Part shown: piece by piece, positions 40,584-47,106 of the stretch | Position numbering within the stretch: the first letter of the stretch is position 1 | Layout of the letters: every line of letters begins with the position of its first letter | Source of the DNA: Nocardioides sp. | GTDB lineage: Bacteria > Actinomycetota > Actinomycetes > Propionibacteriales > Nocardioidaceae | Direction of reading: 5' to 3' | DNA length: 64,000 nt | NCBI GenBank assembly: GCA_017354415.1 | Contig: JAFMQY010000001.1 | Span: 28 to 64,027, forward strand | The notes under the pieces: model-generated | What the model saw: only the letters and a program-made list of their open reading frames with translations | The model's database searches: none | What the model was told of the DNA's origin: nothing | Position numbers and translations under genes: made by a program

Positions 40584-41243
40584 ATGTCCCGCGATCGCGT
40601 CCTGGTGATCGACGACGAGCCTCGCGTCCTCCACTTCGTCTCGCGGGCGCTCCGTGCTGAGGGCGTTGACGTCGACAGCGCGGAGGGCGGTGAGGAGGGC
40701 TGTCGGCTGGCGCTCTCGCAGCCGTATCGACTGGTCATCCTCGATCTCGTCATGCCGGGGGTCGACGGGATGACCGTGCTGAAGCGGCTGCTGCACCACA
40801 AGCCGGATCAGGCCGTGCTGATCCTCTCGTGTCTGAGCGACACCAGCACCAAGGTGCGAGCGCTCGATCTGGGCGCGGCCGACTACCTGGGCAAGCCGTT
40901 CGCGCTCAACGAGCTGATGGCCCGGGTCCGCGTGAGGATGCGGGTACGCCACGACGGCTTCGTCCTGAGCGCCCATGACTTCGTCCTGGATCCCGTCCGC
41001 CACGAGGTCAAGACGCCCACCAAGACCGTGCTGCTGACCCGGACCGAGTCGGCTCTGCTGGGAGAGCTGATCCAGCACGCGGGCGAGAGCGTCTCGAAGG
41101 AGCGGCTCCTCTCGGAGGTGTGGGGCTACCAGTTCGACCCCGAGACCAACGTCGTGGACGTCTACGTCCGGCGGATTCGCAAGAAGCTCGGTGCGACAGC
41201 GATCTCAACGGTGCGAGGAGTTGGCTATGGCGTCGATCTCTGA
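40584..41243 (+). CDS. OmpR/PhoB family response regulator
   Basis: VIDDE, ILDLVMP, GAADYLGKPF, VWG...TNVVDVYVRRIRKKL, TVRGVGY. Confidence 0.94.
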   Translation: MSRDRVLVIDDEPRVLHFVSRALRAEGVDVDSAEGGEEGCRLALSQPYRLVILDLVMPGVDGMTVLKRLLHHKPDQAVLILSCLSDTSTKVRALDLGAADYLGKPFALNELMARVRVRMRVRHDGFVLSAHDFVLDPVRHEVKTPTKTVLLTRTESALLGELIQHAGESVSKERLLSEVWGYQFDPETNVVDVYVRRIRKKLGATAISTVRGVGYGVDL

Positions 41244-42282
41244 GGTGTCCATCAGCGCCCCGCGACGTACCGCTCTCGTCTGGCACCAGTACCGGGTCGA
41301 CATCCTGTGGTGGTGCTTCGTCGCGATCAACGCCTGGGCAATGCTCGTGCTCAGCGTGTGGGCCACGGTGCCGTTCCACTTCATCTGGATCGGTGTCTCG
41401 CTGATGTACGGCTGGCGCGTGTGGACCATGAGGGTCACCTTCGTCTCGCTGTCCGTGATCGTCGTGGTCACGGGGGCGATGCTGCTGGACGACGTCTTCC
41501 GGGGTACCCAGGCGCCCGACGAGCTCACGGAGATCCCGCTGATGGCGGCGGTCTTCCTCGTGATGGTGCACTACGTGCGGCGCAGCGCCGCCGCGCAGCA
41601 GGAGACCGCGCGGGTTGCGGCGCACAACCTCGCCCTGGTCGAGCAGAGCCGGACCCTTGTACAGAACGCCTCCCACGTGCTCCGCACGCCGCTCACCATC
41701 GCGCTGGGTCATGCCGAGCTCTTGGAGCGCACCGCCACCGGTCCCGAGACGGTCGATGACGCCCGCGTCGTCGTCGACGAGCTGAACCGGCTCACGAAGG
41801 TCACCGACCGTTTCCTGGGACTGGCCAAGAGCGAACAGCCCGACTTCCTCTCCCCGGTCGAGACTGCGGTCGGAGACCTGGTGATGCGTACGGCCACTCG
41901 ATGGATGGCCACGCATCCGCCCGTCAGCCTCGGTGTCGTGGTGAACGAGGTCATGTCGGTCGATCCCGACCGCCTGGCCGAGGCCATCGACGAGATGATC
42001 GGGAACGCCGTCGTCCACTGCCCTCCAGGCACGCCGGTCGAGGTCTCCGCAGGCCGGCGCGCCGGCCGGTATGTGATCTCGGTGGCGGACCGCGGCGCGG
42101 GGATCCCGGCCTCGATGACGGCGTCCGTCTTCGAGCGTTTCAGCCACGGGACCGGCACCAGCCGTCGCGGAGCTGGCCTGGGGCTCGCCATCGTCAAGGC
42201 GATCACCGAGGGGCACGGTGGCACGGTCAGGGTCCGCAGTCGTGAAGGGGGAGGCACGGTCCTGGAGATGGCGCTGCCCTGA
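41227..42282 (+). CDS. Membrane sensor histidine kinase (HisKA-HATPase)
   Basis: About 5 TM, H-box SHVLRTP, N-box GNAV, DRGAGI, GAGLGL. Confidence 0.92.
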   Translation: MASISEVSISAPRRTALVWHQYRVDILWWCFVAINAWAMLVLSVWATVPFHFIWIGVSLMYGWRVWTMRVTFVSLSVIVVVTGAMLLDDVFRGTQAPDELTEIPLMAAVFLVMVHYVRRSAAAQQETARVAAHNLALVEQSRTLVQNASHVLRTPLTIALGHAELLERTATGPETVDDARVVVDELNRLTKVTDRFLGLAKSEQPDFLSPVETAVGDLVMRTATRWMATHPPVSLGVVVNEVMSVDPDRLAEAIDEMIGNAVVHCPPGTPVEVSAGRRAGRYVISVADRGAGIPASMTASVFERFSHGTGTSRRGAGLGLAIVKAITEGHGGTVRVRSREGGGTVLEMALP

Positions 42283-42605
42283 GCATCGGCTGCTGTCAGC
42301 ATGGCCGGCTGCGCCGGCGACCCACGCCACCGAGGTCCAGGGCGCCGGCGAAGGTGGCTGATGCCCACCCCTTCTCGCCGCCACCTGCACCGGTTGTTCG
42401 CTGACTCGGGTGACTGGGGTCGCGGGACTCATCCGCCGCCGGAGGCTCGATCACTGCCGTCGCGACCTGCCCGACCCGATCCTCATCGGCAGTCCGGTCC
42501 CGATCGTGGGCATGAACGAGCGCCGGGTCATACGCGCATGGCTGGCGCGCGCAGAGGTACGGGAGGTGGCAGAGCCGACCGGCTCCCTGGTCGAAGGGAC
42601 GAGAG

Positions 42606-45062
42606 ATGCAGCGCGTGGACCGGATCGCAGCCCCATGGGGGACGCGGACGCCGTACGGCAGAGGGGAGACGTGGCCGGAGCGCCGCGACCTCTACCTGGC
42701 CGACGGACTCGCGGAGGCCGAGGTCGACAGATGGGTTCAAACCGCCTCCGTTCTGCACTCGAACGGAGACGCCATGGACATCGCCGTCAAGGACGAGCGG
42801 ATCGTGGGTGTCCGCGGACGCGCTGAGGATCGGGTCAACCGCGGTCGGCTGGGCCCGAAGGATCTCTTCGGGTGGCAGGCGAACCACTCGCCCGACCGGT
42901 TGACGACACCGCAGGTCCGTCGTGGGGGTGAGCTGGTCGAGACCGACTGGGACACCGCTCTGGAGGAAGTTGCGGGACGTACTCGCGACCTGCTGGCCGA
43001 GCGCGGGCCGGGCTCGATCGGGTTCTACACGACGGGACAACTCTTCCTCGAGGAGTACTACACGCTGGCGCTGATCGCGCGGGGCGGCATCGGGACCAAC
43101 CACGTCGATGGCAACACACGCCTGTGCACCGCGACCGCGGGCGAGGCCCTCAAGGAGTCCTTCGGATCGGATGGTCAGCCCGGCTCCTACTCCGACATCG
43201 ACCATGCCGACGTCATCTGCCTGTATGGCCACAACGCCGCGGAGACGCAAACGGTTCTGTGGTGCCGGATCCTCGATCGGCTCGCCGGATCGAATCCGCC
43301 CGAGGTCGTCTGCGTCGACCCGCGACGTACGCCGGTCGCCGAGCACGCCACGCTGCACCTGGCGCCACGGCCCGGCACCCATGTGGTGTTGATGAACTCA
43401 CTGCTCCACGAGCTCGTCGAGCAGGACTGGGTTGACCACGAGTACGTCGCGCAGCACACCGTCGGCTTCGACGAGCTGGCGACGTCGGTGGCGGCGTACT
43501 CGCCGGAGCGAGCCGCGGAGGCCTGCGACGTGCCGGTGGCGCAGATCCGCGAGGCGGCGAGCCTGATCGGGAACGCCGATCGCCTGGTCTCCACGGTGCT
43601 GCAGGGCTTCTACCAGTCGCACCAGGCGACCGCGGCCGCCGTCCAGGTCAACAACGTCCACCTCGTCCGCGGGATGATCGGCAGACCCGGATGCGGCGTC
43701 CTGCAGATGAACGGCCAGCCCACGGCTCAGAACACCCGCGAGTGTGGTGCCGATGGCGACCTGCCCGGGTTCCGCAACTGGGCCAACGACCAGCATGTGC
43801 GCGACCTCGCCCGGGTCTGGAACGTGGAGCCGTCGCACATCCCGCACTACGCGCCGTCCACGCACCTCATGCAGATGCTGCGATACGTCGAACAGGGCTC
43901 GATCCGTTTCCTGTACGTGTCGGGCACCAACCCGGCCGTCTCGCTGCCGGAGCTGAGCCGGATCCGGTCGGTTCTAGCACAGGACCGGCTGTTCCTCGTG
44001 GTCCAGGACATCTTCCCCACGGAGACCACCCAGCTGGCCGACGTCGTGCTGCCGGCGGCCACATGGGGCGAGAAGACAGGGACCTTCACCAACGCCGACC
44101 GCACTGTCCACCTCTCGGAGAAAGCGGTCGAGCCGCCGGGAGAGGCACGCTCGGACCTCGAGATCTTCCTCGACTACGCCCGTCGCCTCGATCTGACCGA
44201 CCGCGAGGGTGCACCTCTCGTTCCGTGGAAAGACGCCGAGGGCGCGTTCGAGGGCTGGAAGGCGTGCAGCCGAGGTCGTCCGTGCGACTACTCGGGCTTG
44301 ACCTACGACATGTTGCGTGGGAACAGCGGCATCCAGTGGCCGTGTGATGACCAGAACCCCGCGGGGACCGAACGGCTGTACGCGGGCGGCCGGTTCCGCA
44401 GCAGCCCGGACGACTGCGAGAGCTATGGCAAGGACCTGGTCACGGGGGCGTCGGTCGAGCCGACGGAGTACCAGGCGATGAACCCGGCCGGAAAGGCGAT
44501 CATCAAGGCGGCCGAGTTCCTCACGCCGCACGAGGTACCGTCCGACGCGTACCCGTTCCACCTGATCACCGGACGGACGATCTACCACTTCCACACGCGC
44601 ACCAAGACGGCTCGGGCCGCGCAGCTGCAGGCAGCCGCTCCCGACGTGTGGGTCGAGGCGTCGCACGAGGATGCCGCGGCCCACGGCTGGTCCGAAGGCG
44701 ACCTCCTCGAGGTGACCACGCTCCGCAGCGCCGTCCGGGCACGGCTGCGGGTCAGCGGAGTACGACGCGGTGTGCTGTTCGTCCCGTTCCACTACGGCTA
44801 CTGGGACGCCGGTGAGCCCAGGCCCGACGGACCGGGTCGAGCCGCGAACGAGTTGACGTCGACCGCCTGGGATCCGGTGTCCAAGCAGCCACTGTTCAAG
44901 ACGGCCGCCGCCAAGGCCGAGGTGGTCCAGAAGTCCGACGGCGTTCCGTCACCGGCTCCGCGGATCGCCGCGTCGAGACCGGTCACCGGCGAACAGGACA
45001 CGCGGGGCGGTGACCCGGCGATGGTGACCGAGGACTTCGAGAGCACGGGAGGTGTCCGATGA
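42606..45062 (+). CDS. Molybdopterin (bis-MGD) oxidoreductase, NasA/NarB-like but lacking Fe-S cysteines
   Basis: DRLTTP, NTRLCTATA, LPAATWGEKTGTFTNADRT, TGRTIYHFHTRTKT, FVPFHY, PVSKQPLFK. Confidence 0.9.
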   Translation: MQRVDRIAAPWGTRTPYGRGETWPERRDLYLADGLAEAEVDRWVQTASVLHSNGDAMDIAVKDERIVGVRGRAEDRVNRGRLGPKDLFGWQANHSPDRLTTPQVRRGGELVETDWDTALEEVAGRTRDLLAERGPGSIGFYTTGQLFLEEYYTLALIARGGIGTNHVDGNTRLCTATAGEALKESFGSDGQPGSYSDIDHADVICLYGHNAAETQTVLWCRILDRLAGSNPPEVVCVDPRRTPVAEHATLHLAPRPGTHVVLMNSLLHELVEQDWVDHEYVAQHTVGFDELATSVAAYSPERAAEACDVPVAQIREAASLIGNADRLVSTVLQGFYQSHQATAAAVQVNNVHLVRGMIGRPGCGVLQMNGQPTAQNTRECGADGDLPGFRNWANDQHVRDLARVWNVEPSHIPHYAPSTHLMQMLRYVEQGSIRFLYVSGTNPAVSLPELSRIRSVLAQDRLFLVVQDIFPTETTQLADVVLPAATWGEKTGTFTNADRTVHLSEKAVEPPGEARSDLEIFLDYARRLDLTDREGAPLVPWKDAEGAFEGWKACSRGRPCDYSGLTYDMLRGNSGIQWPCDDQNPAGTERLYAGGRFRSSPDDCESYGKDLVTGASVEPTEYQAMNPAGKAIIKAAEFLTPHEVPSDAYPFHLITGRTIYHFHTRTKTARAAQLQAAAPDVWVEASHEDAAAHGWSEGDLLEVTTLRSAVRARLRVSGVRRGVLFVPFHYGYWDAGEPRPDGPGRAANELTSTAWDPVSKQPLFKTAAAKAEVVQKSDGVPSPAPRIAASRPVTGEQDTRGGDPAMVTEDFESTGGVR

Positions 45063-45583
45063 GCACGACACGCCTGGCGCGAGCCGCAACCACCCACGAC
45101 GGCATGGCCGGGGCCATCGACATGCTCCATCGCGCCGAGGGCCAGCTGGCACACGCTCTGATCGACCTCTCGGACCGGCACGCCAGTGACCACGAGATCC
45201 ACCACGTGGCCCGTGACCTGGCCGGTTGGTCCCGAGAGCACGTGCGACGGCTGGCCGATCTGGGGCACTCCCACGGTCTCGATCTCGATCCGGAGCCCGC
45301 CCACGAGGTCGCATGGGCCGGGGCGCTGAAGCAGGCGGGTGCCGAGCTGCTCGGACGGCGACACGCCCCCATCGGGATGCTGCTGGCCGACCTGCGCAAC
45401 CTCCACCAGAAGGCCGCTGGAGTCTCACTCGACTGGGAGATCCTGGCCCAGGGAGCACAGGCGACCGAGGATGCGGAGCTGCTTGCCCTGGCTTCTGAGT
45501 GCCACCCCCAGACCCTGCGCCAGCTCAGGTGGACCAACACGCATGTGAAGGAGCTGGCGGCCCAGGCCCTCACATCCACCTGA
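45059..45583 (+). CDS. All-helical hypothetical protein coupled to the Mo enzyme
   Basis: ATGA overlap. His/Glu-bearing amphipathic helices; a ferritin-like bundle is possible. Confidence 0.65.
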   Translation: MSTTRLARAATTHDGMAGAIDMLHRAEGQLAHALIDLSDRHASDHEIHHVARDLAGWSREHVRRLADLGHSHGLDLDPEPAHEVAWAGALKQAGAELLGRRHAPIGMLLADLRNLHQKAAGVSLDWEILAQGAQATEDAELLALASECHPQTLRQLRWTNTHVKELAAQALTST

Positions 45584-45630: not shown

Positions 45631-47106
45631 ATGACCACCCCCTCGCCCTGGCGAGACCGCGCCGCTCCGATCGAGACCGACACCGAACTCGGCCGGGAGT
45701 ACGACGACGTCGTCGTCGGCGCGGGCCTCACCGGCCTGGTGACCGGATTGCTCCTGGCACGTGCAGGTCGCTCGGTGGCTGTCATCGAGGCCCGCGATGT
45801 GGGAGCCGTCACCACGGGAAACACCACGGGCAAGGTGTCCCTTCTCCAGGGCACGAGGCTCTCGCGCATCCTTGCGCGACAGAGCCGGCGCGTGGCACGC
45901 GCCTATGTCGAGTCCAGTCGCGAAGGACAGGCATGGCTGCTGCGCTTCTGCGACGACCACGCCGTCCCGTACCAGGTCCGCGACGCCGCGACTTACGCAC
46001 AGAACCAGGACGCGCTACCCGCTGCTCGAGCGGAGCACGAGGCGGCTCGCAAGCTCGGCCTCGACGTGACATGGCGAGATGACCTGGACGTCCCGTTCCC
46101 GCACCTGGGGGGCACCGTGCTGGCGGGGCAGGCACAGCTGGACGCGATGGATCTGCTTGGCACCCTGGTGAGCGAGCTGCGCCACGAGGGCGGGACGGTG
46201 GTCACCGGGAAACGCGTCGTCGGGGCGGCCCTGTCCGGCGATGCGGTCAGCCTCTCGGACGGCGGCTCCGTCACGGCCTCGAACGTCGTCCTGGCCACCG
46301 GCGTACCGATTCTCGATCGTGGTCTGTACTTCGCCAAGCTCGAGCCGCAGCGCTCGTACGGGTTGGCGTTCCGTCACCCTTCCCCTCCCGAGCTCATGAT
46401 GCTTTCCTCGGGCTCCCCCACGGTCTCGGTGCGGGATGCTCCGTCGGACGACGGATCATTGCTGTTGGTCGGCGGTCACGGGCACGTCGTGGGTCGTACC
46501 CGATCACACGCCGCGCACCTCGATGCGCTTCGCGCATGGACGCAGGAGTGGTTCCCAGAGGCGCAGGAGACGCACGCCTGGTCTGCCCAGGACTACTCCT
46601 CGCACGACGGCCTGCCGTTTGTCGGGCGGCTTCCCCGCGGCCGTGGTCGCCTCTACATCGCCACCGGTTTCGCCAAGTGGGGATTGACCGGCGGCCCCGC
46701 TGCCGCCTTGTCGATCAGCAAGGAGATCCAAGGTCACAGGGCGAGCTGGCAGCGGCCGATATCGCACAGGGTCACCCGACCGCGTCCGGCCATGGAACTC
46801 GTTCGACTCAACACTTCCGCGGGCCTCCACCTGGTCGGTGACCTGCTTCGCGCGGGGCTTCGCCGGGTGAACGATCCCGAGGAAGGCTCAGGGGAAGTAG
46901 GCCGCTCGGGGCTGCTCCCGGTCGGGAGGTCACGGACCGACGGGCGCACGTGCTCGATCGTGGCGCTGTGCACGCACCTGGGAGGGACCCTCACCTGGAA
47001 CGACGCCGAACACTCCTGGGACTGCCCACTGCACGGCTCACGGTTCACCGCCACCGGCGAGGTGCTCGAGGGGCCGGCCACCAGGCCGCTGCATCGCGCC
47101 ACCTGA
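45631..47106 (+). CDS. FAD-dependent oxidoreductase with C-terminal Rieske [2Fe-2S] domain
   Basis: VVGAGLTG, TTGNTTGK, CTHLG...WDCPLHGSRF. Confidence 0.92.
   Translation: MTTPSPWRDRAAPIETDTELGREYDDVVVGAGLTGLVTGLLLARAGRSVAVIEARDVGAVTTGNTTGKVSLLQGTRLSRILARQSRRVARAYVESSREGQAWLLRFCDDHAVPYQVRDAATYAQNQDALPAARAEHEAARKLGLDVTWRDDLDVPFPHLGGTVLAGQAQLDAMDLLGTLVSELRHEGGTVVTGKRVVGAALSGDAVSLSDGGSVTASNVVLATGVPILDRGLYFAKLEPQRSYGLAFRHPSPPELMMLSSGSPTVSVRDAPSDDGSLLLVGGHGHVVGRTRSHAAHLDALRAWTQEWFPEAQETHAWSAQDYSSHDGLPFVGRLPRGRGRLYIATGFAKWGLTGGPAAALSISKEIQGHRASWQRPISHRVTRPRPAMELVRLNTSAGLHLVGDLLRAGLRRVNDPEEGSGEVGRSGLLPVGRSRTDGRTCSIVALCTHLGGTLTWNDAEHSWDCPLHGSRFTATGEVLEGPATRPLHRAT

What the first reader, a model, noticed from the sequence alone, without database searches (positions are those of the whole stretch)
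42606..45583. Nitrate-reductase-like molybdoenzyme with all four [4Fe-4S] cysteines replaced, plus a coupled helical partner
Seen: the canonical CxxCxxxC...LCxKG region reads TASVLHSNGD...RLGPKD, while the Mo-ligand Cys (NTRLCTATA) and bis-MGD motifs remain. A His/Glu-rich helical ORF is translationally coupled and an FAD-Rieske enzyme follows. Established: NasA/NarB/NapA need this cluster for electron entry. Inference: the enzyme receives electrons by another route (partner or Rieske protein) or catalyses a non-redox or different reaction.
Basis: partly seen in the sequence, partly recalled or inferred. Interest (0 to 1): 0.65.

Follow-up and report, generated by a model that had tools for sequence, protein, structure and literature searches.

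The report
Cluster-less 'NarB' molybdoenzyme with ferritin-like partner
This is an intact, widely conserved actinobacterial two-gene unit: a nitrate-reductase-like molybdenum enzyme that has swapped its iron-sulfur-binding cysteines for His/Asp/Asp, always paired with a small ferritin-like protein. It is the same family as the mycobacterial 'NarB', which published knock-outs show is not needed for nitrate use, so the 'nitrate reductase' name is probably wrong.

Summary
The 818-aa enzyme (42606-45062) aligns end to end with Desulfovibrio NapA. It keeps the Mo-ligand Cys174 and both bis-MGD domains, but the four FS0 ligand positions read S48, H51, D55 and G83.

It is not a decayed copy. In 96 cysteine-less sequences H51, D55 and D86 are invariant. 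These are the only three of 818 positions that separate this clade from its nearest relatives, which keep CxxCxxxC but already lack the fourth Cys.

The 174-aa helical ORF (45059-45583, ATGA overlap) follows the enzyme in 80 of 80 loci and also accompanies the 3-Cys relatives; one relative carries it as a fusion. It models as a ferritin-like four-helix bundle with no Pfam family. The FAD-Rieske gene is not part of the unit (1 of 80 loci).

M. smegmatis NarB/MSMEG_2837 plus MSMEG_2838 is the same pair (70% identity). Published work puts that pair in the SigF stress regulon and finds it dispensable for nitrate assimilation. I found SigF-type promoters upstream in 17 of 79 loci, against 2 of 4018 background windows.

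Substrate and electron route remain unknown. Small-anion channel genes lie next to the pair in about 20 of 94 loci.

The parts
42606..45062 (+). Catalytic subunit: cytoplasmic Mo-bisMGD enzyme of the Nap/Nas/Fdh branch, 818 aa, orthologue of M. smegmatis NarB (MSMEG_2837).
   Evidence: AF2 model pTM 0.90. Best structural match is D. desulfuricans NapA, TM 0.81/0.91. 70% identical to P0396 = ABK73830.1.
42747..42863 (+). Former FS0 site, residues 48-86: S48, H51, D55, G83, K85, D86. H51, D55 and D86 are the clade-defining switch.
   Evidence: Model pLDDT is only 63-73 here, against 85-98 in the core.
43113..43139 (+). Mo-ligand motif N170-TRLCTATA-178. C174 is invariant, and T175 replaces the Met of Nap/Nas and the His of Fdh.
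44265..44417 (+). Four near-invariant cysteines C554, C560, C580 and C604 (C-x5-C-x19-C-x23-C). C554 and C604 are specific to this family. Role unknown.
45047..45062 (+). Coupling signal: Shine-Dalgarno GGGAGG (45047-45052) and the ATGA stop/start overlap (45059-45062).
   Evidence: The same 4-nt overlap is present in about 75 of 80 other loci.
45059..45583 (+). Partner subunit, 174 aa (160 aa in most species; the window copy has about 13 extra N-terminal residues). Ferritin-like four-helix bundle, orthologue of MSMEG_2838.
   Evidence: AF2 pLDDT 90. Foldseek top hits are ferritins, and 3hiu reaches TM 0.72/0.81. No Pfam or NCBIfam family. At least 2489 clusters, all named 'hypothetical'.
45631..47106 (+). 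Neighbour only, not part of the conserved unit: FAD (DAO) oxidoreductase with a C-terminal Rieske domain.
   Evidence: A homologue lies near the pair in 1 of 80 loci.

Best explanation
The two genes encode a two-subunit cytoplasmic molybdenum enzyme that belongs to the actinobacterial general-stress repertoire. It is not an assimilatory nitrate reductase.

Shown:
- The large subunit has a NapA-like Mo-bisMGD fold with a Cys-ligated Mo and the Nap-type substrate Arg.
- Its iron-sulfur site has been replaced by an invariant His51/Asp55/Asp86 set. In the tree this replacement happened once, in an ancestor that already had only three cluster cysteines.
- A ferritin-like 160-aa protein is always co-encoded, usually with an ATGA overlap. 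It predates the cysteine loss and occurs fused to the enzyme in one relative.
- In many species the pair sits behind a SigF/SigB-type promoter.
- The M. smegmatis orthologues are SigF-dependent and dispensable for nitrate assimilation (literature).

Inferred:
- The small protein is a permanent subunit, docked on or near the former FS0 face.
- Either its conserved His/Glu/Cys layer holds a metal that passes electrons straight to the pterin, or it shapes a His/Asp/Asp site that does so. DorC and TorC feed the cluster-less DorA and TorA in a comparable way.
- The substrate is a small anion that crosses the membrane through the AceTr/YaaH-, HPP-, TauE- or TehA-type channels often encoded next to the pair.
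For: - Alignment to NapA and domain scores. NapA is the best structural match, TM 0.81/0.91.
- The partner lies directly downstream in 80 of 80 genome loci from many Actinomycetota genera, with a 4-nt overlap in about 75 of 80.
- H51, S52, G54, D55 and D58 are invariant in 81 sequences.
- H51, D55 and D86 are the only 3 of 818 positions that are invariant in the 96 cysteine-less proteins and never that residue in the 3-Cys relatives.
- Tree: 4-Cys outgroups, then a 3-Cys grade, then one cysteine-less clade. The joint node has support 0.98.
- The 3-Cys relatives also carry the partner, and P0125 is a 962-aa fusion.
- The partner models as a four-helix bundle with a long crossover (pLDDT 90). 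Ferritins and 3hiu are the top structural hits.
- Partner residues E27, H41, D111, W126, Q131, W158, K164 and Q169 are conserved in all types. There is a correlated swap of (S123, E127, H149) for (D123, T127, E149).
- M. smegmatis NarB is 70% identical, has no FS0 cysteines, and is followed by a 160-aa gene.
- MSMEG_2837 and MSMEG_2838 are down about 8- to 20-fold in a sigF mutant and share a GTTT-N16-GGGTA promoter (PMC4694148).
- A narB deletion does not affect nitrate assimilation or nitrate reductase activity (PMC7816997).
- G[TG]TT-N14-17-GGGTA lies within 250 nt upstream in 17 of 79 loci against 2 of 4018 background windows. GGGTA alone is present in 45 of 79, against 8.7% of background windows.
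- A YaaH-like channel gene is adjacent in 16 of 94 loci. HPP is directly adjacent in 2 (two more lie within about 4 kb), and TauE and SLAC1/TehA in 1 each.
Against: - No metal or cofactor in the partner has been shown. It lacks the canonical two ExxH di-iron motifs, and only one Glu, one His and one Asp are universal.
- Docking on the FS0 face is not tested. I had no complex model and no coordinates.
- The fusion is a single metagenome-assembled case and could be an assembly frameshift.
- The window itself has no recognisable SigF-type promoter and no adjacent channel gene.
- The narB knock-out result is weak evidence against nitrate reduction, because the authors detected no narB transcript under their conditions (PMC7816997).
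- Support for monophyly of the cysteine-less clade is modest (0.60).
- Retention of the Nap-type Arg and of a Nas-like 'DGQPGSY' loop keeps nitrate-like substrates possible.
Confidence: 0.5

Rival explanations
1. Chaperone plus ping-pong enzyme. The helical protein is only a private maturation or stabilising factor, functionally like TorD/NarJ. The mature enzyme is a monomer that needs no internal relay because donor and acceptor react in turn at the Mo centre, as in NADPH-dependent biotin sulfoxide reductase BisC. In that case it would probably repair or detoxify an oxidised small molecule during stress.
For: - Only a few partner residues are universal, and there is no canonical metal motif.
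- The partner evolves faster than the enzyme: about 50% against 72% identity, and about 28% in the second subclade.
- Cluster-less bis-MGD enzymes exist (DorA, TorA and BisC appear among the hits).
- The orthologue belongs to a stress regulon (PMC4694148).
Against: - There is no match to the TorD/NarJ family PF02613, and no TorD/DmsD/NarJ structure appears among the 50 listed (best) Foldseek hits.
- A natural fusion and near-universal ATGA coupling fit a stoichiometric subunit better.
- The conserved buried His/Glu/Cys layer with a compensatory swap is unusual for a chaperone.
Confidence: 0.22
2. It is still a nitrate reductase of the NarB/NasA kind, as annotated. It would simply be fed without FS0 by a soluble donor, and would be used under stress or stationary-phase conditions that have not been assayed.
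For: - The closest structures and models are NapA and Nas.
- The Nap substrate Arg is conserved.
- HPP, a nitrite-transporter family, lies directly beside the pair in L118 and L120 and beside a 3-Cys relative in scan note e1-5199888.
- narB was not expressed in the conditions of the published knock-out test (PMC7816997).
Against: - Scores are far below the NasC/NasA/NapA cut-offs: 397 against 1100, 376 against 1000, and 329 against 904.
- The Met that follows the Mo-Cys in Nap/Nas is an invariant Thr here.
- No conserved link to a nitrite reductase or nitrate transporter was found in about 90 loci.
- A narB deletion has no nitrate phenotype, and NasN is the sole assimilatory enzyme (PMC7816997).
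- The M. smegmatis pair is under SigF control (PMC4694148) rather than grouped with the GlnR-regulated nasN and MSMEG_6816 (PMC7816997).
Confidence: 0.13
3. The adjacent FAD-Rieske protein replaces FS0 as the electron entry point (one of the first reader's options).
For: In the window it lies 47 nt downstream on the same strand, with no predicted terminator in between. Its Rieske ligand motifs (CTH...CPLH) are intact.
Against: A homologue lies within 6 kb in only 1 of 80 other loci, and there on the opposite strand upstream. It is absent from the M. smegmatis locus.
Confidence: 0.03
4. A non-catalytic relic: a pseudo-enzyme kept for Moco storage, sensing or scaffolding.
For: A redox centre has been lost. 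A degenerate paralogue (P0138) that also lost the Mo-ligand Cys exists in the wider clade.
Against: C174, the whole active-site motif, the substrate Arg and the bis-MGD contacts are invariant across 96 sequences. 263 of 818 positions are invariant.
Confidence: 0.05

Closest known systems
Mycolicibacterium smegmatis NarB (MSMEG_2837) with MSMEG_2838
   Same: Same family and same two-gene layout: 70% identity over 775 residues, N-terminus 'AAVLHSNGD...GRLDPKD' without cysteines, and a 160-aa gene with no Pfam family 11 nt downstream.
   Different: The published work treats it as a standard nitrate reductase architecture. In the papers I could read, the missing FS0 ligands and the partner are not described (PMC7816997, PMC4694148, PMC3706326). 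The M. smegmatis copy has A48/D83 where the window has S48/G83.
Monomeric periplasmic nitrate reductase NapA of Desulfovibrio desulfuricans (2NAP/2JIM) and assimilatory NasA/NarB/NasC
   Same: Overall fold (TM 0.81/0.91, 31% identity), Cys Mo ligand, substrate Arg, pterin-bridging Lys, and both MGD-binding domains.
   Different: No [4Fe-4S] FS0 ligands. Thr instead of Met after the Mo-Cys. A 40-residue conserved N-terminal extension. No Tat signal. An obligate ferritin-like partner. Scores far below the family cut-offs.
Arsenite oxidase AioA (three-Cys [3Fe-4S] in place of FS0)
   Same: The nearest relatives of this clade (P0124, P0125, L097, L108, P0130) have CxxCxxxC with Gly at the fourth ligand position. 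From my own knowledge, this pattern gives a [3Fe-4S] cluster in AioA.
   Different: Only distantly related (161 bits). No Rieske small subunit. The window protein has lost the remaining three cysteines too.
Cluster-less type III enzymes DorA/TorA/BisC
   Same: Bis-MGD enzymes that work without any Fe-S cluster. They are fed directly at the pterin by a partner cytochrome, or by NADPH in the case of BisC (own knowledge).
   Different: A different branch (TIGR00509 113 bits against a cut-off of 1018) with a Ser rather than a Cys Mo ligand. This would be an independent loss of the cluster.
Ferritin-like four-helix bundles of the DUF892 (YciE/YciF) and DUF2383 type, e.g. XCC3681 (3hiu)
   Same: Four long helices with a long crossover between helices 2 and 3 (TM 0.72/0.81). 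Two of 30 members give weak PF05974 hits. A few UniRef entries carry these labels.
   Different: Below every Pfam threshold. No paired ExxH di-iron motif. Always encoded with a molybdoenzyme.

Membership tests
Mo/W-bisPGD (MopB/DMSO reductase) superfamily, Nap/Nas/Fdh branch | Molybdopterin oxidoreductase domain plus MGD-binding beta-barrel | tested here: met
   PF00384 197.8 bits and PF01568 85.4 bits, both full length. NapA is the best fold match.
Mo/W-bisPGD (MopB/DMSO reductase) superfamily, Nap/Nas/Fdh branch | Cys or Sec ligand to Mo at the NapA Cys140 position | tested here: met
   C174 aligns to the 'nprlCmasa' Cys of 2jim. It is invariant in 96 sequences.
Mo/W-bisPGD (MopB/DMSO reductase) superfamily, Nap/Nas/Fdh branch | N-terminal FS0 [4Fe-4S] motif CxxCxxxC...C | tested here: not met
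   S48/H51/D55/G83. PF04879 scores 16.5 bits against a cut-off of 22.7. The motif is absent in all 96 clade members.
Assimilatory nitrate reductase NasA/NarB/NasC | Score above the curated equivalog cut-off | tested here: not met
   NasC 397 against 1100; NasA 376 against 1000.
Assimilatory nitrate reductase NasA/NarB/NasC | Genomic link to nitrite reductase or nitrate transport genes | tested here: not met
   None in the window around the pair. No such family recurs among the neighbours in about 90 loci.
Assimilatory nitrate reductase NasA/NarB/NasC | Needed for growth on nitrate, or shows nitrate reductase activity | not testable with these tools
   Literature on the orthologue: M. smegmatis delta-narB grows on nitrate and reduces nitrate like wild type (PMC7816997). 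narB was not expressed in that test.
Formate dehydrogenase alpha (FdhF/FdsA) | Curated score, and a His directly after the Cys/Sec ligand | tested here: not met
   TIGR01591 453 against 666. Thr175 follows the Cys and is invariant.
Type III cluster-less S-/N-oxide reductases (DorA/TorA/BisC) | Membership of the bisC/torA sequence family. These enzymes have a Ser Mo ligand (own knowledge), which I did not check by alignment here | tested here: not met
   TIGR00509 113.6 against 1017; TorA 55.7 against 1465. The residue at the NapA ligand position is Cys174.
Ferritin-like superfamily (partner protein) | Four-helix bundle with a long crossover loop | tested here: met
   AF2 helices 3-40, 45-71, 104-135 and 139-172. 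Ferritins, Dps and 3hiu are the top Foldseek hits.
Ferritin-like superfamily (partner protein) | Di-iron ligand set E, ExxH, E, ExxH | tested here: inconclusive
   In the main clade only E27, E/D46-xx-H/Y49, H61, E127 and H149 fit the pattern. The universal polar residues are E27, H41 and D111. I had no coordinates to check the geometry.
TorD/NarJ/DmsD molybdoenzyme chaperones (partner protein) | PF02613 match or TorD-like fold | tested here: not met
   No Pfam hit even at E <= 10. No TorD, DmsD or NarJ structure among the 50 listed (best) Foldseek matches.

The most novel reading that the evidence does not exclude
The Fe-S entry cluster of a Nap/Nas-type molybdoenzyme has been replaced by a different electron-entry device. 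This would be a His/Asp/Asp site in the old cluster pocket, completed or fed by a metal-binding ferritin-like subunit. If so, it is a new subunit architecture for bis-MGD enzymes, used by Actinomycetota in the SigF/SigB stress response on a small toxic anion such as nitrite, sulfite or a related species.
Probability: 0.2. Interest if true: 0.8.

Novelty: new variant of a known kind. Interest (0 to 1): 0.6.

Why it matters
- Hundreds of actinobacterial genomes, including the model organism M. smegmatis, carry this gene under the name 'nitrate reductase' or 'NarB', although it lacks the cluster that such enzymes need. That would explain the published lack of a nitrate phenotype.
- To my knowledge, every characterised member of the Nap/Nas/Fdh branch has FS0. 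A selected clade without it, tied to a ferritin-like subunit, raises the question of how electrons reach the pterin.
- The stepwise 4-Cys, 3-Cys, 0-Cys series offers a natural experiment on how cofactors are lost.
- Everything is directly testable in a laboratory strain.

Tried and rejected
- **FAD-Rieske, the upstream two-component system, cytochrome oxidase, methyltransferase and decarboxylase as conserved partners.** tblastn against 80 loci gave 1, 3-4, 1, 0 and 2 hits. Rejected.
- **A conserved third gene.** Clustering of flank ORFs and a Pfam tally of 71 immediate same-strand neighbours showed no dominant family. My GC3 filter missed many YaaH-like genes, which a direct tblastn then found.
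- **Partner against Pfam, NCBIfam and PDB sequence profiles.** No significant hit.
- **Partner His residues gained when the cysteines were lost.** I first thought H24, H45, E127 and H149 were such gains. The second cysteine-less subclade has the 3-Cys-type partner, so this was rejected.
- **Model of the natural fusion with an unpaired alignment.** MAFFT placed the partner rows inside the enzyme (A3), so I dropped it and modelled the enzyme alone.
- **SigF motif upstream of the window's own gene.** None found.
- **Tools and papers not available.** The JBC 2020 NasN paper is not held.
- **P0275, upstream of the distant 3-Cys protein P0130.** No visible similarity to the partner by eye and no Pfam family; I did not run a profile comparison.
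Full report
**Observation.**
The + strand ORF 42606-45062 encodes 818 aa. It carries full-length PF00384 and PF01568 domains, while the Fe4S4 domain PF04879 scores only 16.5 bits against a cut-off of 22.7. It scores well below every curated equivalog: Fdh-alpha 453 against 666, NasC 397 against 1100, NasA 376 against 1000, NapA 329 against 904.

The best solved relative is the monomeric NapA of D. desulfuricans (E 8e-108, aligned over query 40-771). In that alignment the four FS0 cysteines fall on S48, H51, D55 and G83. The Mo-ligand Cys falls on C174 (NTRLCTATA), the Lys between FS0 and the pterin on K85, and the Nap substrate Arg354 on R378. The N-terminus shows no twin-arginine signal.

The next ORF, 45059-45583 (174 aa), begins in the enzyme's stop codon (ATGA) behind a GGGAGG Shine-Dalgarno. 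An FAD/DAO protein with an intact C-terminal Rieske motif follows. Its sensible start is the ATG at 45631, 47 nt after the partner.

**Not a decayed copy.**
A word-indexed search found thousands of relatives. All of the best 120 lack a PF04879 annotation.

The best 80 loci come from Nocardia, Kribbella, Blastococcus, Geodermatophilus, Streptomyces, Arthrobacter, Mycobacterium, Georgenia, Cellulomonas and other genera.

In an even sample of the phylum, 20 of 401 genomes (12 of 248 genera) carry the enzyme. The same-genus and same-family relatives of the window's genome do not, so the distribution is patchy.

In 81 aligned sequences the old cluster loop reads W-V-Q-[ST]-A-[STA]-[IVL]-L-H-S-[ND]-G-D-[AG]-x-D. 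H51, S52, G54, D55 and D58 are invariant. Over 96 cysteine-less sequences, 263 of 818 positions are invariant.

**How the cluster was lost.**
An exhaustive profile-free search showed that the nearest 50%-identity representatives, P0124 and P0125 (58-59% identity), read CxxCxxxC...GRLGPKG. They have three cysteines and a Gly at the fourth ligand position. P0130 (42%) has the same pattern. P0132 (46%) and more distant relatives have all four.

More 3-Cys forms turned up in the phylum sample: L097, L108 and L112.

The ML tree places the groups in this order: 4-Cys proteins outside, then P0130, then a 3-Cys grade, then a single cysteine-less clade. That clade has two subclades, one containing the window, Streptomyces and Mycobacterium, the other belonging to a different class. 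The joint node has support 0.98 and the base of the cysteine-less clade 0.60.

Only three of 818 positions are invariant in the cysteine-less clade and never the same residue in the 3-Cys relatives: H51 (Cys), D55 (Cys) and D86 (Gly). Position 48 is S, T or A, and position 83 is G or D.

In NapA the residues at 51 and 55 bind one cubane, so H51 and D55 must point into the same small pocket. This is an inference from homology. The AF2 model (pTM 0.90) is least confident exactly there, with pLDDT 63-73 against 85-98 in the core. Its best structural match is NapA, TM 0.81/0.91.

**The partner.**
tblastn finds it directly downstream in 80 of 80 loci. By my ORF assignment the overlap is 4 nt in about 75 of 80.

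All 3-Cys relatives that I could inspect have it too. P0125 is a 962-aa protein whose C-terminal 160 residues look like the partner. So the association is older than the cysteine loss.

Most copies are 160 aa. The window copy has about 13 extra N-terminal residues because its coupled start lies further upstream.

It has no Pfam, NCBIfam or PDB sequence match. Two of 30 members touch DUF892 weakly. At least 2489 clusters exist, nearly all named 'hypothetical', with occasional DUF892 or DUF2383 labels.

AF2 gives a confident bundle (pLDDT 90) with helices 3-40, 45-71, 104-135 and 139-172 and a long crossover. Foldseek returns ferritins, Dps and the DUF892-like 3hiu (TM 0.72/0.81), but no TorD, DmsD or NarJ among the 50 listed hits.

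Residues conserved in every type are E27, H41, D111, W126, Q131, W158, K164 and Q169, with H61 and C148 nearly so. The main clade adds H24, H45, E46, H49, E127 and H149. The second subclade and the 3-Cys type show a correlated swap of (S123, E127, H149) for (D123, T127, E149).

This pattern looks like a maintained polar or metal site, but it is not the canonical di-iron set, and I could not check the geometry.

**Surroundings.**
Nothing else is conserved. The FAD-Rieske gene recurs in 1 of 80 loci, and the upstream response regulator and kinase in 3-4 of 80, at 28-38% identity. Clustering and a Pfam tally of neighbours gave no dominant family.

A direct search did show one recurring link. A GPR1/FUN34/YaaH-type membrane protein lies next to the pair in 16 of 94 loci, usually immediately downstream on the same strand. 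Two of these are 3-Cys loci.

HPP proteins follow the partner in L118 and L120, with two more within about 4 kb. A TauE/SafE protein precedes the pair in L121, and a SLAC1/TehA-type protein follows it in L117.

From my own knowledge, these are all channel or carrier families for small anions: acetate, nitrite, sulfite and tellurite respectively. That is a weak pointer to the class of substrate or product. The window has none of them.

**Link to published work.**
A search with the M. senegalense member returned 'nitrate reductase [M. smegmatis]'. The cluster look-up shows ABK73830.1/AFP39227.1, 'Nitrate reductase narB', from strain mc2155. It is 70% identical to the window protein, reads 'WVQSAAVLHSNGDGLDIA...GRLDPKD', and is followed after 11 nt by a 160-aa gene with no Pfam family.

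- In PMC4694148, MSMEG_2837 (NarB) and MSMEG_2838 (conserved hypothetical) fall by log2 4.4/3.2 and 3.9/3.1 in a sigF mutant, and share a GTTT-N16-GGGTA promoter 42 nt upstream.
- In PMC7816997, deleting narB, alone or in combination with narGHJI, MSMEG_2237 or MSMEG_6816, changes neither growth on nitrate nor nitrate reduction in air or anaerobically. [quoted passage not shown] The authors saw no narB expression in their media, so catalytic ability is not excluded.
- PMC4881515 reports MSMEG_2837 transcripts in minimal media.

None of these papers mentions the missing cysteines or treats MSMEG_2838 as a partner.

I tested the regulatory link across genera. G[TG]TT-N14-17-GGGTA lies within 250 nt upstream of the enzyme gene in 17 of 79 loci, mostly about 35 nt before the start and including all five Mycobacterium loci. 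The background is 2 of 4018 windows. A relaxed form is present in 27 of 79 against 1.2%, and GGGTA alone in 45 of 79 against 8.7%. The window's own upstream region has no such site.

**Reading.**
- Secure: this is a conserved two-gene unit encoding a cluster-less NapA-like Mo enzyme and a ferritin-like protein. In many species it belongs to the SigF/SigB-type stress regulon. It is the 'NarB' of mycobacteria.
- Likely: the small protein is a stoichiometric subunit, given the coupling, the fusion and its age.
- Open: whether it or the His/Asp/Asp pocket holds a metal, how electrons reach the pterin, and what the substrate is.

I favour a subunit that replaces FS0 functionally. I hold the chaperone plus ping-pong reading as the main rival, and a still-unassayed nitrate reductase as the next.

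**Earlier scan notes.**
Notes e1-2651780 and e1-4103391 describe the same pair in other genomes. Note e1-5199888 describes a 3-Cys form with a ferritin-like protein and an HPP transporter. I reproduced both patterns independently.

**Limits.**
- I had no coordinates from the models, so no geometry could be checked.
- No complex prediction was possible.
- The JBC NasN paper was not available.

Noticed in passing
window 44265-44417 (residues 554-604): Four near-invariant cysteines (C554, C560, C580, C604; C-x5-C-x19-C-x23-C) are present in 92-96 of 96 family members. C554 and C604 are absent from the 4-Cys outgroups but present in most 3-Cys relatives. They might form a second metal site or a redox disulfide.
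   Followed up: partly
L007, L010, L018, L022, L035, L045, L048, L050, L053, L119, L121, L081 (downstream); L038, L039, L115 (upstream); L067 (downstream, opposite strand): A GPR1/FUN34/YaaH-type membrane protein gene lies next to the pair in 16 of 94 loci, often overlapping the partner's stop. HPP (L118, L120), TauE (L121) and SLAC1/TehA (L117) occupy the same position elsewhere.
   Followed up: partly
P0138 (769 aa, from the representative search): A degenerate paralogue inside the same wider clade has lost both the FS0 motif and the Mo-ligand Cys ('LDCGLRGGAAARA'). It may be a true pseudo-enzyme.
   Followed up: no
L085 5001-7889 (P0125, GCA_017884145.1): A 962-aa protein in which a 3-Cys enzyme is fused to a partner-like C-terminal domain. 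It is a single case from a metagenome-assembled genome, so an assembly frameshift is not excluded.
   Followed up: partly
window 45059-45100: The window's partner has about 13 N-terminal residues that the usual 160-aa homologues lack. An internal ATG at 45104 would give a protein starting near the consensus start.
   Followed up: no
window 41008-42432 (-): A 474-aa minus-strand ORF opposite the histidine kinase gene translates to a low-complexity Arg/Pro/Gly-rich product. It is an antisense shadow frame typical of high-GC DNA, not a gene.
   Followed up: partly
G000 contig C84:995-2392 (-), outside the window: Another PF00384 enzyme in the same genome has one in-frame TGA within a 957-aa frame. 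It may be a selenocysteine formate dehydrogenase.
   Followed up: no
G339 (same genus) and G328 (same family): The closest sampled relatives of the window's genome lack the pair, although it is present in distant classes. The distribution is patchy and suggests gain or loss as an accessory unit.
   Followed up: no
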